A stretch of DNA of 64,000 bases. Origin: Escherichia phage Eps7. The stretch lies in sequence record NC_010583.1, one strand, 5' to 3'. Shown one piece after another: positions 31,642 to 36,025 of the stretch (the stretch's first letter is position 1; each line of letters opens with the position of its first letter). The notes under the pieces were generated by a model. It saw nothing but the letters and a program-made list of their open reading frames with translations. It made no database searches and was not told the origin of the DNA. The translations under genes were made by a program, and so were the position numbers.

Positions 31642-31960
31642 AATTGAAATCTCTAGTTATCCCTTTCGGAGGGGCTAAAGGGCGATACCCATTCTAAAGA
31701 CTTCAATTGTGGCGGCTCTCCGAAACTCATCACACTAACAACTAGTTGATTACTTCTGGATTCTCGCCCAGAAAATTCTCTAGAAAGGTGCACCGTTACT
31801 CTTTGAGCCATTAATGTATCAAGAAGCAGAAGGACTTGAACCTTCACGAGATAGACCATTTATCTCAGCCTCGTTTTCGGGTATCTTATGAGGAGTGGAT
31901 GTTCCCCTTACGCCCTTTAGGAAGCCCCGTCTACCGATTCCGGCATACTTCAAGAATTAT
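31642..31960 (-). other. unresolved tRNA-like / structured RNA region
   Basis: ORF-free; contains Leu-tRNA-like D-arm GGAATCGGTAGAC and a T-arm GAAGGTTCAAGTCCTTC without clean acceptor pairing or CCA. Confidence 0.3.
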
Positions 31961-32279: not shown

Positions 32280-32370
32280 TGGCGGAAGAAGAGAGATTCG
32301 AACTCTCAAGCCGTTTTACCAGTCAGCCACTTTCCAAGCGGTTTTCGTCACCTAATCGATTTGCTCTTCC
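32280..32370 (-). tRNA. tRNA, long-variable-arm class (anticodon unresolved, possibly Ser-GGA)
   Basis: perfect T-arm GAGAGTTCGAATCTCTC, acceptor GGAAGAG/TTCTTCC, CCA; 91 nt. Confidence 0.5.
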
Positions 32371-32952: not shown

Positions 32953-33031
32953 TGGTGGAGAATAACGGAATCGAACCGTTCTGATGTCCTCGGTGCAAGC
33001 GAGGTGTCCACTCCATGCAGACCCATTCCCC
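32953..33031 (-). tRNA. tRNA with anticodon TGC (second Ala-like copy)
   Basis: manual fold: G3-U70, anticodon stem CCTCG/CGAGG, loop CTTGCAC, T-arm AACGGTTCGATTCCGTT, CCA. Confidence 0.5.
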
Positions 33032-33040
33032 AAAATTTAT

Positions 33041-33304
33041 TTATTCTCTATACATATCGAGAACAGTTGCTACAATCTGAGCTTCTAGCCTAGCAATATC
33101 TTTATTCACTATATCAGATTCTACTACTAAGTGATTATATATTGCTTCAGTTTTAGCAAGATCTACATCAGATAGTTTATTAAGACTATTATAATACTTA
33201 GCATTATTGCAACGTTTCTTCATATCGGAAACTCGTTTATGGAGTGTTCTTTGTTGATAACGTTGTGACATTAGTTTCTTAGCCATATCTTTCAGATCAA
33301 ACAT
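33041..33304 (-). CDS. hypothetical protein
   Basis: 87-aa ORF with AGGAAT RBS. Confidence 0.5.
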   Translation of the reverse strand: MFDLKDMAKKLMSQRYQQRTLHKRVSDMKKRCNNAKYYNSLNKLSDVDLAKTEAIYNHLVVESDIVNKDIARLEAQIVATVLDMYRE

Positions 33305-33548
33305 GGATATTCCTTCTAGTTTACTAAGGCTATTAGCTCGGTGTGCGTATTACCCTCAGACATTAGCCAGTAGAGGATAATCGCTCTTCACAAACCCGAT
33401 ACACTATTCAGTTGCCGCTGAATCTAGCGGACTAATCTAGAACTTCTCCCGAGTCGTAGGGATCGTGCTTTTTTGGCAGCCAGTCCTAGGTCGAGCTAAT
33501 ACCTTAGTGAACTTTGATGAGGATTTCTCCTCATCAATTTATATAAAT
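33305..33548 (-). ncRNA. candidate structured leader / small RNA
   Basis: 245-nt ORF-poor transcribed segment between promoter and next start codon; long-range complement TAAGGTATTAGCTCG vs CGAGCTAATAGCCTTA; local hairpins. Confidence 0.3.
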
Positions 33549-34967: not shown

Positions 34968-35212
34968 CTACATTTTTAATAAATTTACTTATTAGGTAAG
35001 TCACCGAGCTATCAACTCATGCTAGCGAAAGTTTGCGAGACCTTCTTTAAGTACTAGAACACACCCGCCGATGTGTCGGACTTACTTAATAAGTAAACTT
35101 TCGTTTACTTACACCTACCTGGTCGGGAGGATTTTCAGCGACTAGAACCGGCCGGAAACTCATCGCCTTGTTTATCTAGGAGTCCGTTCTCTAGGAAGCA
35201 GAAACCTAAATT

Positions 35213-35287
35213 TGGTGCGGTCGGAGGGAATCGAACCCTCAACTTCTGGTTGGCAACCAAAAAATTATACCTTTTAACTACGAACGC
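35213..35287 (-). tRNA. tRNA-Gly (GCC)
   Basis: manual fold: T-arm GAGGGTTCGATTCCCTC, anticodon stem TTTGG/CCAGA, loop TTGCCAA, CCA. Confidence 0.6.
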
Positions 35288-35302
35288 ATAATAAGTCAAT
35301 CT

Positions 35303-35440
35303 AGGCAGGACTTGAACCTGCTATCACTTGTGCGGATTTACGAGAACCATTCTTTCACTCGAATCGAACGAGCTTCTACCCTCGGCAAGCTGGTGTCCCC
35401 TCTCCACCACGCTAGAATGATAATTAATGCCTGCTCCTTT
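35303..35440 (-). other. unresolved tRNA-like region (two T-arm-like motifs, no encoded CCA)
   Basis: GCAGGTTCAAGTCCTGC and GCTCGTTCGATTCGAGT motifs; acceptor stems could not be paired by hand. Confidence 0.3.
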
Positions 35441-35500
35441 GAATCAAGAAGTCCACCCCGGACTTTGGGTCTTTGCAGTACATCACGCTGCTCTGATGTT

Positions 35501-35576
35501 TGGTACACCCACTAGGACTTGAACCTAGAACCCTCCGCTTAAGAGGCGGTAGCTCTAACCATTGAGCTATGGATGT
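35501..35576 (-). tRNA. tRNA-Lys (CTT)
   Basis: manual fold: T-arm CTAGGTTCAAGTCCTAG, anticodon loop CTCTTAA, CCA. Confidence 0.55.
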
Positions 35577-35729: not shown

Positions 35730-36025
35730 ATAATTTATTTACTCAGTTTTGAGTTTTTCGATAGCTTCCTCAACCTCTTTTAGAGCTTCACGACGGGCAT
35801 TCTGTTGCTGCATATCTTGAATTAATGTCAGTTTTTGTTTTTAATTTCTTGATCCCAAACCTTAATATTATTAATCAGACTATCACGATCAGCTTCTAGT
35901 CGAGCAATTGCACGAGTTGTCATATCTATTTCCTCAGTTATTAATGAAAATGGTATCTGTGACTGAATTCAATATCAGTAATGATAGCTGGTTGGCTACC
36001 GGTTTACTTAACTCTACACAGAATA

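What the first reader, a model, noticed from the sequence alone, without database searches (positions are those of the whole stretch)
35303..35440. Second unresolved tRNA-like block with two T-arm motifs
Two T-arm-like motifs (GCAGGTTCAAGTCCTGC and GCTCGTTCGATTCGAGT) lie within ~140 nt between tRNA-Gly(GCC) and tRNA-Lys(CTT). Neither has an encoded CCA and I could not pair the acceptor stems. These could be tRNA pseudogenes or non-canonical tRNAs.
Basis: seen in the sequence. Interest (0 to 1): 0.4.

Follow-up and report, generated by a model that had tools for sequence, protein, structure and literature searches.

The report
One tRNA-like RNA, two T-loops
The two T-arm motifs belong to a single 125-base tRNA-shaped RNA gene of a T5-like phage, the counterpart of phage T5's long-annotated "RNA2", in which a conserved 55-base domain with a second T-loop replaces the anticodon loop; its function is still unknown.

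Summary
Both T-arm motifs exist on the minus strand (35321-35305 and 35373-35357), between tRNA-Lys(CTT) and tRNA-Gly(GCC). No CCA is encoded, and ARAGORN and Rfam call no tRNA there.

This is one gene, not two tRNAs or pseudogenes. Window 35418-35294 (-) is the ortholog (89.6% identity) of phage T5 "RNA2", which GenBank AY543070 annotates as a "tRNA-like stable RNA with unknown functions".

Comparison of 13 T5-like lineages and 3 Acinetobacter T4-like phages gives a full cloverleaf frame:
- a 7-bp acceptor stem joining the two ends;
- a D-arm;
- a 5-bp anticodon-type stem;
- a 4-nt variable loop;
- a T-arm.

All stems show compensatory changes. The anticodon loop is replaced by a 55-nt insert with a second T-loop hairpin and near-invariant AAUGG, C.CGUAA and UCC elements.

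The RNA cannot decode. It is probably processed like its tRNA neighbours and probably acts as a non-decoding tRNA mimic. That function is inferred, not shown.

The feature is already known, though it is absent from Rfam and usually unannotated or mis-annotated. Interest is moderate.

The parts
35294..35418 (-). Whole tRNA-like RNA gene, ortholog of T5 RNA2. A1 is at 35418, the discriminator G at 35297, then ACT.
   Evidence: blastn of T5 rna2 (AY543070 32959-33083) covers 35419-35295 at 89.6% identity, E = 4e-43. The covariance model R1 scores 134.6 bits, E = 3e-28, on 35294-35418. The family HMM scores 122.6 bits, and this is the only full-length copy in the window.
35412..35418 (-). Acceptor stem, 5' strand ATTCTAG.
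   Evidence: It pairs with 35304-35298. In this window 6 of 7 positions pair, with T.T at 2:71. All 7 positions show compensatory changes, and 95.6% of cells pair across 13 lineages.
35391..35409 (-). D-arm: stem TGGTG/CACCA with loop GAGAGGGGA, which contains the GG.
   Evidence: In the curated alignment 4 of 5 stem positions are compensatory and 98.5% of cells pair. The MAFFT alignment counts 5 of 5. The GG in the loop is invariant.
35386..35390 (-). Anticodon-type stem, 5' strand GCTTG.
   Evidence: It pairs with CAAGT at 35330-35326. Pairing is 100% in 16 sequences and 5 of 5 positions are compensatory, for example CCTG/CAGG, CCTC/GAGG, CCAT/GTGG, TCTG/CAGA and GCCG/CGGC.
35331..35385 (-). 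55-nt insert that replaces the 7-nt anticodon loop.
   Evidence: Replacing it with a 7-nt loop makes ARAGORN call a tRNA at default thresholds in 4 of 5 lineages. T-loop 1 is 95% identical and the 3' 14-mer 87% identical across the ten most divergent lineages. The frame stems are only 41-69% identical.
35357..35373 (-). T-loop hairpin 1 inside the insert: GCTCG-TTCGATT-CGAGT.
   Evidence: The stem covaries (CTCG/CGAG, ACGG/CCGT, CTGG/CCAG, ATGG/CCAT), with 97.5% of cells paired. It is the only helix that RNAalifold recovers within the insert.
35331..35351 (-). Near-invariant insert elements: AATGG (35351-35347), CTCGTAA (35344-35338) and ATCCGCA (35337-35331).
   Evidence: These columns are invariant or nearly so in alignments of T5-like and Acinetobacter T4-like homologs. 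A spacer of 1-6 nt of variable length separates AATGG from CTCGTAA.
35326..35330 (-). Anticodon-type stem, 3' strand CAAGT.
   Evidence: See its 5' partner.
35322..35325 (-). Variable loop GATA.
   Evidence: Read from the alignment.
35305..35321 (-). True T-arm: GCAGG-TTCAAGT-CCTGC. It stacks directly on the acceptor 3' strand.
   Evidence: Three of 5 stem positions are compensatory and 97.5% of cells pair.
35298..35304 (-). Acceptor stem, 3' strand CTAGATT.
35288..35297 (-). Discriminator G (35297) and a 9-nt trailer, ACTTATTAT, running up to tRNA-Gly. No CCA is encoded here.
   Evidence: At the same three positions CCA is encoded in KKP_3711, UTK0010, L011 and L043.

Best explanation
Window 35418-35294 (minus strand) encodes one tRNA-like small RNA of about 121-125 nt. 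It is the ortholog of phage T5 RNA2.

Shown here:
- It has a complete tRNA frame. A 7-bp acceptor stem closes the two ends. There is a D-arm with a GG loop, a 5-bp anticodon-type stem, a 4-nt variable loop, and a canonical T-arm stacked on the acceptor stem. Compensatory substitutions maintain every stem.
- A 55-nt insert replaces the 7-nt anticodon loop. The sequence of the insert is conserved, rather than its pairing. It carries a second, canonical T-loop hairpin and the elements AAUGG, C.CGUAA and UCC.
- The RNA has no anticodon loop and no U33, so it cannot decode.
- It sits in the phage tRNA array, on the same strand as the tRNAs. No promoter-like or terminator-like site was found on that strand within its two flanking spacers (35288-35500).

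Inferred from the frame and from general knowledge of tRNA processing:
- RNase P cuts it out of the polycistronic tRNA transcript at its 5' end.
- RNase P cleavage of the downstream tRNA-Gly and 3' exonuclease trimming release it.
- The host CCA-adding enzyme adds CCA where it is not encoded. Some lineages encode CCA at exactly this position.
- Both T-loops are plausible substrates for the T-loop-modifying enzymes.

Inferred function, with the weakest support: a non-decoding tRNA mimic. The frame would give stability and access to proteins that handle tRNA. The insert would be the specific binding surface for a host or phage factor. My leading guess is a decoy or inhibitor for an enzyme that acts on tRNA, such as a tRNA-targeting defence nuclease or an enzyme that modifies the acceptor end.

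My confidence is about 0.9 for identity and architecture, about 0.6 for biogenesis, and about 0.2 for the decoy function. The single figure given for this explanation, 0.75, refers to identity, architecture and the non-decoding tRNA-mimic reading taken together.
For: Identity:
- The window is an Epseptimavirus-type T5-like phage, 99.7% identical to SB13 and PSa2.
- T5 record AY543070 annotates the homologous 125 nt as misc_RNA rna2, "tRNA-like stable RNA with unknown functions". Identity to the window is 89.6%.

Architecture:
- In the MAFFT alignment of 15 sequences, 90.3% of cells pair, against 75.3% in shuffles and 36-43% when partners are slid.
- In the same alignment, 22 of 31 pairs change on both sides, against 10.8 in shuffles, with 0 of 500 shuffles reaching the observed value.
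- In the curated alignment the acceptor, D, anticodon-type, T1 and T2 helices pair in 95.6-100% of cells, with compensatory changes at 23 of 27 positions.
- Replacing the insert with a 7-nt loop gives default ARAGORN tRNA calls in 4 of 5 lineages.
- Ordinary tRNAs align end to end to the frame model at 15-32 bits. True members score 73-143 bits, with one member per phage.

Selection on the insert sequence:
- T-loop 1 is 95% identical and C.CGTAA.TCCGCA 87% identical. The frame stems are 41-69% identical.

Distribution:
- 502 phage records match the 213-nt spacer query that holds the element, though some (Klebsiella records) match only the upstream spacer part.
- Homologs occur in Acinetobacter T4-like phages 133 and ZZ1 and in one 167-kb contig.
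- All homologs lie in or beside tRNA arrays.

The 3' end:
- CCA is encoded right after the discriminator in KKP_3711, UTK0010, L011 and L043.

Not protein-coding:
- Only short ORFs with TTG or GTG starts lie within the element. The single ATG ORF (35427-35522, plus strand) lies upstream of it.
- The homologs differ by frame-breaking indels of 1-6 nt.
Against: - No expression, end-mapping or stability data were available here. "Stable RNA" rests on the T5 depositors' annotation, and I could not trace its experimental basis. No open-access paper I found discusses it.
- The single-sequence fold is no better than shuffles (z = +0.47). This is also common for true tRNAs.
- This window's acceptor stem has a T.T mismatch at 2:71, and CCA is not encoded.
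- The fold of the insert is unresolved. Two mutually exclusive candidates each pair in only 81-85% of cells, with one or two compensatory positions. RNAalifold finds only the T-loop hairpin.
- In the Acinetobacter phages the 5' acceptor strand and the D-arm are not clearly recoverable.
- No data bear on the proposed decoy or mimic function, and no protein gene is consistently linked to the element.
Confidence: 0.75

Rival explanations
1. Two adjacent tRNA pseudogenes or two separate non-canonical tRNAs. Each T-arm motif would be the remnant of its own tRNA.
For: There are two T-loop motifs 52 nt apart. ARAGORN at lowered thresholds gives overlapping weak calls built on either motif. One GenBank record, KKP_3711, annotates a 70-nt tRNA-Arg(ccg) using the upstream motif.
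Against: No acceptor stem can be formed for either half. The only stem that covaries joins the outermost ends. The alternative 5' half-cloverleaf (TTCTAGC/GAAAGAA) is possible only in this clade and fails in type-B lineages (sequences). The most strongly conserved part of the element, its insert, lies between the two motifs. Pseudogenes would not show compensatory changes across two phage families.
Confidence: 0.03
2. A genuine decoding tRNA interrupted in its anticodon loop by an intervening sequence that is spliced out.
For: The insert sits exactly where tRNA introns sit. ARAGORN in intron mode at a relaxed threshold proposes tRNA-Pro(agg) with a 27-nt intron over 35295-35414. The frame alone scores as a tRNA.
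Against: At 55 nt the insert is far too short for a self-splicing group I or II intron (general knowledge). Bacteria and these phages are not known to have the archaeal/eukaryal splicing endonuclease. The second insert nucleotide, which would be position 33, is C in nearly all lineages, so the flanks cannot rebuild a U33 anticodon loop (rows). The insert is more conserved in sequence than the exon-like frame, the opposite of what is expected for an intron. T5 depositors annotate the full 125 nt as the stable RNA.
Confidence: 0.05
3. A cis-acting processing or punctuation element, like the t-elements of plant mitochondria. The tRNA-like frame would only recruit RNase P and 3' processing enzymes to cut the polycistronic transcript. 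The released RNA would have no function of its own.
For: It lies inside a polycistronic tRNA array, with no promoter-like or terminator-like site on its strand in the flanking spacers. In T5 it follows a protein-coding gene, T5.067, so it could define an mRNA 3' end.
Against: A punctuation role needs only the acceptor/T-arm minihelix. It does not explain near-invariant insert sequences and a second T-loop conserved across Demerecviridae and Acinetobacter Straboviridae. In this window the element is flanked by tRNAs, which already provide processing sites.
Confidence: 0.12
4. A miniature tmRNA-like or ribosome-directed RNA. It would be a tRNA-like domain, charged on its acceptor end, that enters stalled ribosomes or binds a ribosomal tRNA-elbow site.
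For: As in tmRNA, the termini form an acceptor/T-arm module and the anticodon arm is replaced by another domain. The Serratia phage Kamaji homolog has G3.U70 and A73 (rows). In phage ZZ1 the homolog lies next to an RF-1-domain gene.
Against: ARAGORN in tmRNA mode finds nothing. Rfam gives no tmRNA hit. There is no tag reading frame or pseudoknot. G3.U70 is absent in this window and in most lineages. The link to the RF-1-domain gene is not conserved in Acj133 or L055.
Confidence: 0.03
5. A small protein-coding gene, as several GenBank records annotate ("hypothetical protein").
For: Some records place a hypothetical CDS over the region. ORFs of 28-67 aa exist.
Against: All ORFs within the element start with TTG or GTG, overlap each other, and lie on both strands. 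Homologs differ by indels of 1, 2, 3, 4 and 6 nt. The substitution pattern is one of compensatory base pairs.
Confidence: 0.01

Closest known systems
Phage T5 RNA2 (gene rna2; GenBank AY543070, misc_RNA 32959-33083, "tRNA-like stable RNA with unknown functions")
   Same: It is the direct ortholog, with 89.6% identity over 125 nt. It has the same strand relation to the tRNA array, the same frame and the same insert.
   Different: The neighbours differ. T5 has CDS T5.067 upstream and RNAIV downstream. The window has tRNA-Lys(CTT) and an 82-nt spacer upstream and tRNA-Gly(GCC) downstream. T5 pairs position 2:71 (U-A) and has U.G at 3:70, whereas the window has T.T at 2:71. The tail is ACA in T5 and ACT in the window.
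Other stable RNAs in phage tRNA clusters: T5 RNA1 (144 nt, "tRNA-like") and T4 species 1 and species 2 RNAs (rnaC, rnaD)
   Same: All are RNAs of about 105-145 nt, of unknown function, encoded inside phage tRNA clusters on the tRNA strand. T5 RNA1 and T4 rnaC end in a T-arm followed by an acceptor-like 3' strand (sequences). RNA1 also looks like a tRNA frame with an enlarged anticodon region.
   Different: No homology was detected. The family HMM and the covariance model find only T-arm-level matches: T4 rnaC scores 17.1 bits (E = 0.15) and RNA1 has no significant hit. Only short motifs are shared with RNA1, namely TGAGATAAATGGTC, ATCC(G/A)C and, in this window's copy only, CGTAA.
Canonical tRNA (Rfam RF00005)
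   Same: It has an acceptor stem, a D-arm with GG, a 5-bp anticodon-type stem, a variable loop, a T-arm with a TTCRANY loop, and a discriminator. In some lineages CCA is encoded.
   Different: There is no 7-nt anticodon loop, no U33 and no anticodon. A 55-nt insert takes their place. Position 8 is C rather than U. It scores below the thresholds of ARAGORN and Rfam.
tRNA-like domain of tmRNA (SsrA)
   Same: The termini pair into an acceptor/T-arm module, and a non-tRNA domain replaces the anticodon arm.
   Different: There is no tag ORF and there are no pseudoknots. The D-arm is complete. G3.U70 is not conserved. The RNA is about one third the size of tmRNA. Neither ARAGORN nor Rfam detects it as tmRNA.
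Bacterial and phage Y RNA-like tRNA mimics (YrlA)
   Same: They are non-decoding RNAs that copy the tRNA elbow, with T-arm and D-arm. Some are phage-encoded (from memory).
   Different: In YrlA the termini form the Ro/Rsr-binding stem at the anticodon-stem side, which is the opposite topology (from memory). Rfam gave no YrlA match at E <= 10. No rsr gene was looked for.

Membership tests
T5 RNA2 family (phage tRNA-like stable RNA) | Sequence homology to the annotated T5 rna2 gene over its full length | tested here: met
   Identity is 89.6% over 125 nt, E = 4e-43. The HMM scores 122.6 bits. The covariance model scores 134.6 bits, against 32 bits or less for any non-member.
T5 RNA2 family (phage tRNA-like stable RNA) | tRNA frame with the 55-nt insert and a second T-loop hairpin in place of the anticodon loop | tested here: met
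   All five helices and the insert elements are present in the window copy.
T5 RNA2 family (phage tRNA-like stable RNA) | Location within the phage tRNA array, on the same strand as the tRNAs | tested here: met
   It lies between tRNA-Lys(CTT) and tRNA-Gly(GCC) on the minus strand. The context is the same in PSa2, KKP_3711, My1 and phiR2-01.
T5 RNA2 family (phage tRNA-like stable RNA) | Accumulates as a stable RNA in infected cells | not testable with these tools
   This rests only on the depositors' wording in AY543070.
Canonical tRNA (RF00005 / ARAGORN) | Cloverleaf stems: acceptor 7 bp, D, anticodon stem 5 bp, T 5 bp with a T-loop | tested here: met
Canonical tRNA (RF00005 / ARAGORN) | 7-nt anticodon loop with U33 and an anticodon | tested here: not met
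   A 55-nt insert lies between the strands of the anticodon-type stem. The nucleotide at the position of U33 is C.
Canonical tRNA (RF00005 / ARAGORN) | Score above the detection thresholds | tested here: not met
   Rfam gives 12.5 bits against a gathering score of 29. ARAGORN at default settings finds nothing.
tmRNA | Tag-peptide reading frame, pseudoknots and the G3.U70 alanine identity pair | tested here: not met
   ARAGORN -m finds nothing. Rfam gives no hit. Position 3:70 is T-A in the window.
Intron-containing tRNA | An intron that can be removed (group I core or bulge-helix-bulge) and leaves a canonical anticodon loop | tested here: not met
   The insert is 55 nt. No Rfam intron family matches. 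The flanks cannot rebuild a U33 loop. The insert is more conserved than the frame. Splicing itself cannot be tested here.
T4 species 1 / species 2 RNA (rnaC, rnaD) | Sequence or structure homology to T4 rnaC or rnaD | tested here: not met
   nhmmer finds only T-arm-level matches in the T4 tRNA region. The covariance model scores 17.1 bits on rnaC, E = 0.15.

The most novel reading that the evidence does not exclude
RNA2 may define a family of phage tRNA mimics shared by T5-like siphophages and Acinetobacter T4-like myophages. In this family a complete tRNA frame displays a second T-loop module, and the invariant AAUGG and C.CGUAA elements, where the anticodon should be. Such an RNA would act in trans as a decoy or inhibitor for a host factor that recognises tRNA. 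Candidates are a tRNA-cleaving or tRNA-modifying anti-phage defence effector, or a protein that binds the T-loop or tRNA elbow. Because it cannot decode, it would not disturb translation.
Probability: 0.2. Interest if true: 0.7.

Novelty: already known. Interest (0 to 1): 0.38.

Why it matters
Phage tRNA arrays are now known to act as counter-defences. T5 tRNA-Tyr counters retron Eco7, and phage tRNAs are proposed to offset tRNA-cleaving nucleases (PMC10644984; T5 and tRNA-targeting defences also in PMC13096335). Yet the "stable RNAs" that sit among these tRNAs in T5 and T4 still have no assigned function.

This locus shows three things:
- One of these RNAs is a well-constrained tRNA mimic, and its conserved business end replaces the anticodon.
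- It is shared between two phage families.
- It is invisible to ARAGORN and Rfam. In public genomes it is usually unannotated, called a hypothetical protein, or mis-called tRNA-Arg(ccg).

A curated RNA family built from the alignment made here would correct hundreds of annotations. It would also give a defined target for deletion and pull-down experiments.

Tried and rejected
1. ARAGORN relaxed modes (-ps80, -ps60, -i, -m, -mt) gave three inconsistent sub-threshold calls: Ile(aat), Ala(tgc) and Pro(agg) with an intron. None has a conserved acceptor stem.

2. Rfam at E <= 10, on 14.5 kb and on the 146-nt region alone, gave no family at or near threshold.

3. Single-sequence MFE folding was not informative (z = 0.47). 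The MFE structure breaks the helices that covary.

4. An all-against-all column covariation scan was swamped by phylogenetic correlation and was abandoned.

5. Several pairings within the insert were tried:
- Extending the anticodon-type stem into the insert (GCG/CGC with a bulged A) is not conserved.
- A GGTT/ATCC hairpin presenting CUCGUAA as a pseudo-anticodon loop works only in lineages without the 3-6-nt spacer insertions.
- CGAG/CTCG pairs in 85% of cells but is broken in the commonest T5 clade.
- GGGY/RUCC plus XXXX/CNCG with a UAA bulge pairs in 81% of cells, with two compensatory positions. It is my preferred candidate but is unproven.

6. The genome-contig scan with GAAAGAATGGTTCNCGTAA gave 12 hits. 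One, on a 167-kb contig, is a true homolog. Nine share one conserved coding context that reads VERMVHVMP, which I take from memory to be gatC, and two more are unrelated. Twelve hits is about the number expected by chance.

7. The metagenome scan gave only T5-like and Klebsiella-phage variants.

8. Paralogy with T5 RNA1, or with T4 rnaC or rnaD, was not supported by HMM or CM searches.

9. Literature searches found no open-access paper that describes T5 RNA2.

10. The 82-nt upstream spacer shows no significant fold (z = -0.40).

Full report
**What the window is.** The 651 bases around the finding are 99.7% identical to Salmonella phage vB_SenS_SB13, Salmonella phage JNwz02 and Escherichia phage PSa2 (Epseptimavirus, Demerecviridae). 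They also match hundreds of other T5-like phages. ARAGORN finds 29 tRNA genes, all on the minus strand, between 29.7 and 42.7 kb. The finding lies in the 213-nt gap between tRNA-Lys(CTT) at 35501-35576 and tRNA-Gly(GCC) at 35213-35287.

**Checking the observation.**
- Read on the minus strand, GCAGGTTCAAGTCCTGC is at 35321-35305 and GCTCGTTCGATTCGAGT is at 35373-35357.
- The T-loop core GTTCRANTC occurs 30 times in the window, against 4.4 +/- 2.1 in shuffles. Twenty-eight of the 30 are on the minus strand in the tRNA array. These two are among four there that no ARAGORN tRNA covers.
- No CCA follows the 3' motif; the sequence reads CTAGATT-G-ACT.
- ARAGORN at default settings and the Rfam tRNA model call nothing. 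Rfam reaches 12.5 bits against a gathering score of 29.

**What it is homologous to.**
- The 213-nt spacer matches 502 phage records.
- The conserved core is query positions about 79-206, which is window 35295-35422. It includes phage T5 itself.
- T5 record AY543070 annotates exactly this stretch (32959-33083, minus strand, 125 nt) as misc_RNA rna2, "RNA2: tRNA-like stable RNA with unknown functions". It sits among several other stable RNAs: rnaI, rnaIII, rnaIV, rna1, rna2H, rna3 and rnaX.
- blastn of T5 rna2 against the window covers 35419-35295 at 89.6% identity, E = 4e-43.
- Most other records leave the region unannotated. Some place a hypothetical protein on it. Enterobacter phage KKP_3711 calls a 70-nt tRNA-Arg(ccg) that uses the internal T-loop hairpin.

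**One molecule, not two.** I collected homologs from IMG/VR, metagenomes, GenBank phages and one genome contig. They fall into 13 distinct Demerecviridae lineages: T5 and Epseptimavirus types, Klebsiella Sugarlandvirus types, Serratia phage Kamaji, Yersinia phage phiR2-01 and Pectobacterium phage My1. Three are Acinetobacter-type T4-like phages: 133, ZZ1 and a 167-kb contig. The comparison shows a single cloverleaf.

| Element | Window coordinates (minus strand) | Support |
|---|---|---|
| Acceptor stem | ATTCTAG 35418-35412 with CTAGATT 35304-35298 | In other lineages it becomes TACGGGG/TCCCGTA, TATGGGA/TCCCGTA, GTTCTAG/CTAGAAC or GGGTACT/GGTATCC. All seven positions are compensatory. |
| D-arm | 35409-35391 | Four of five stem positions are compensatory in the curated alignment; the MAFFT alignment counts five of five. 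The loop keeps an invariant GG. |
| Anticodon-type stem | GCTTG 35390-35386 with CAAGT 35330-35326 | It becomes CCTG/CAGG, CCTC/GAGG, CCAT/GTGG, TCTG/CAGA, GCTG/CAGT, GCCG/CGGC or TCTG/CGGA. It pairs in 100% of 80 cells, and all five positions are compensatory. |
| Variable loop | GATA 35325-35322 | Read from the alignment. |
| T-arm | 35321-35305 | It abuts the acceptor 3' strand. |
| Discriminator | G35297 | Read from the alignment. |

- On the automatic MAFFT alignment, 90.3% of cells pair, against 75.3% in shuffles and 36-43% when partners are slid.
- On the same alignment, 22 of 31 pairs change on both sides, against 10.8 expected, and 0 of 500 shuffles reach the observed value.
- The curated alignment gives 95.6-100% pairing per helix.
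- The window copy has one T.T mismatch at 2:71, which it shares with its closest relatives.

**The anticodon loop is replaced.**
- Between the two strands of the anticodon-type stem lie 55 nt (35385-35331) instead of 7.
- When I replaced this insert with a 7-nt loop, ARAGORN at default thresholds called a tRNA in 4 of 5 lineages. The anticodon in those calls is an artefact of the loop I supplied.
- A covariance model of the frame scores 134.6 bits on 35294-35418. It scores 73-143 bits on exactly one place per phage. Ordinary tRNAs align to it end to end at only 15-32 bits.
- A family HMM finds a single full-length copy in the window.

**What the insert contains.**
- A canonical T-loop hairpin, GCTCG-TTCGATT-CGAGT, at 35373-35357. 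Its stem covaries: CTCG/CGAG, ACGG/CCGT, CTGG/CCAG, ATGG/CCAT.
- AATGG at 35351-35347.
- C.CGTAA at 35344-35338.
- (A/G/T)TCCGCA at 35337-35331.
- A spacer of 1-6 nt, variable in length, lies between AATGG and C.CGTAA.

Across the ten most divergent lineages, T-loop 1 is 95% identical and the C.CGTAA.TCCGCA 14-mer is 87% identical. The frame stems are only 41-69% identical. Selection therefore preserves pairing in the frame and sequence in the insert. This pattern fits a scaffold that presents a recognition surface.

**The fold of the insert is not resolved.** RNAalifold recovers only the T-loop hairpin. Two mutually exclusive candidates have modest support.
- CGAG/CTCG pairs in 85% of cells. 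It has one compensatory position and is broken in the commonest T5 clade.
- GGGY/RUCC followed by XXXX/CNCG, with a UAA bulge, pairs in 81% of cells. It has two compensatory positions (U-A/C-G, and A-U/U-A/C-G) and places the variable-length spacer in a bulge. I prefer this second candidate, but it is unproven.

**Context and biogenesis.**
- The promoter and terminator consensus scans found no site on the minus strand between 35288 and 35500.
- The element is 9 nt upstream of tRNA-Gly. In Klebsiella phages it starts 3-4 nt after the CCA of the preceding tRNA.
- In KKP_3711, UTK0010, L011 and L043 the three bases after the discriminator are CCA. Elsewhere they are ACT, ACA, CTA or CAA.
- From these facts and from established tRNA biology, I infer the following pathway. 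RNase P cuts at the 5' end. RNase P cleavage of the next tRNA, followed by exonuclease trimming, releases the RNA. The host enzyme then adds CCA.
- These processing steps are inference. No transcript data were available.

**It is not protein-coding.** Only short, overlapping ORFs with TTG or GTG starts lie within the element, and the one ATG ORF (35427-35522) lies upstream of it. Homologs differ by frame-breaking indels.

**Function.**
- With no anticodon loop and no U33, the RNA cannot decode.
- It is not tmRNA-like in any defining feature.
- It is not an intron-bearing tRNA in any way I could test. The insert is too short. The flanks cannot rebuild an anticodon loop. The insert is more conserved than the frame.
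- The best-supported reading is a non-decoding tRNA mimic whose insert is the functional surface.
- A decoy or inhibitor for a tRNA-recognising factor is my leading guess, at about 0.2. The guess is prompted by the counter-defence roles now attributed to T5 tRNAs (PMC10644984, PMC13096335).
- Nothing in my data tests this guess.

**Distribution.**
- The family appears restricted to phages. It occurs in Demerecviridae and in a few Acinetobacter Straboviridae. There the insert, the anticodon-type stem and the T-arm are kept, but the 5' acceptor strand and the D-arm are unclear.
- The scan of 185,579 species genomes returned one true homolog, on a 167-kb contig that carries a phage-like tRNA array. 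The other hits were coding-sequence coincidences.

**Verdict.** The feature is real and ordered, but it is already known as T5 RNA2. Three results here go beyond the GenBank one-line annotation:
- the explicit architecture, a tRNA frame with a T-loop-bearing insert in place of the anticodon loop;
- the covariation support for it;
- the cross-family distribution.

I cannot exclude that older literature, which I could not read, already contains these points. Interest is moderate.

Noticed in passing
window 31810-31954 (-): This is a homolog of T5 RNA1 (144 nt, "tRNA-like stable RNA") at 80.7% identity. It has a T-arm (T-loop at 31833-31841) that ARAGORN does not call, a D-loop of the class II tRNA type, and an enlarged anticodon region. 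It shares short motifs with RNA2 (TGAGATAAATGGTC, CGTAA, ATCC(G/A)C). The HMM and the covariance model detect no homology.
   Followed up: partly
window 32280-32370 (-): A degenerate tRNA-like element of the class II type, ending in ...CTTCCGCCA, with a T-loop at 32295-32303. Rfam tRNA-Sec scores 22.5 bits and the frame model 23.5 bits, but ARAGORN does not call it. It occupies the position of T5 tRNA-Ser2(GGA).
   Followed up: no
window 35951-36023 (-), 33388-33501 (-), 35029-35080 (-): These are homologs of other annotated T5 RNAs of unknown function: RNA3 ("putative tRNA-like RNA", 94.5% identity, abutting tRNA-Asn), RNA2H (94.7% over 113 nt) and part of RNAIV (81%).
   Followed up: no
window 35419-35500 (-): The 82-nt spacer between tRNA-Lys(CTT) and RNA2 is 94-97.5% identical (mostly 96-97.5%) to a segment of Klebsiella Sugarlandvirus phages. 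There it lies more than 1 kb away from their RNA2 homolog, so it behaves as a separate conserved module. It contains two hairpins, but its fold is no better than shuffles.
   Followed up: partly
L044 (Acinetobacter phage ZZ1) 528-758: Directly downstream of the ZZ1 RNA2-like element is a 76-aa "RF-1 domain peptide chain release factor" gene. Its product appears to lack the GGQ motif: it reads ...RVGKHSNWVNTPDRGVRVTHISTGI.... The link is not conserved in Acj133 or L055.
   Followed up: partly
L055 7053-7127 (-), L062 6751-6823 (-): The T4-like Acinetobacter-type contigs carry a predicted amber-suppressor tRNA with anticodon CUA, which ARAGORN labels "Pyl". In L055 it lies immediately upstream of the RNA2-like element.
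   Followed up: no
L004 684-753 (Enterobacter phage KKP_3711) and several GenBank records: Public annotations of this locus are inconsistent. Some call it tRNA-Arg(ccg), built on the internal T-loop hairpin. Others call it a hypothetical protein or leave it blank. Only T5 AY543070 labels it as an RNA.
   Followed up: yes
L052-L054, L056-L061 (Clostridia MAG contigs): The 19-mer GAAAGAATGGTTCACGTAA recurs in a conserved bacterial coding context that reads ...VERMVHVMP.... I take this from memory to be gatC. It is a coincidental match unrelated to the RNA.
   Followed up: partly
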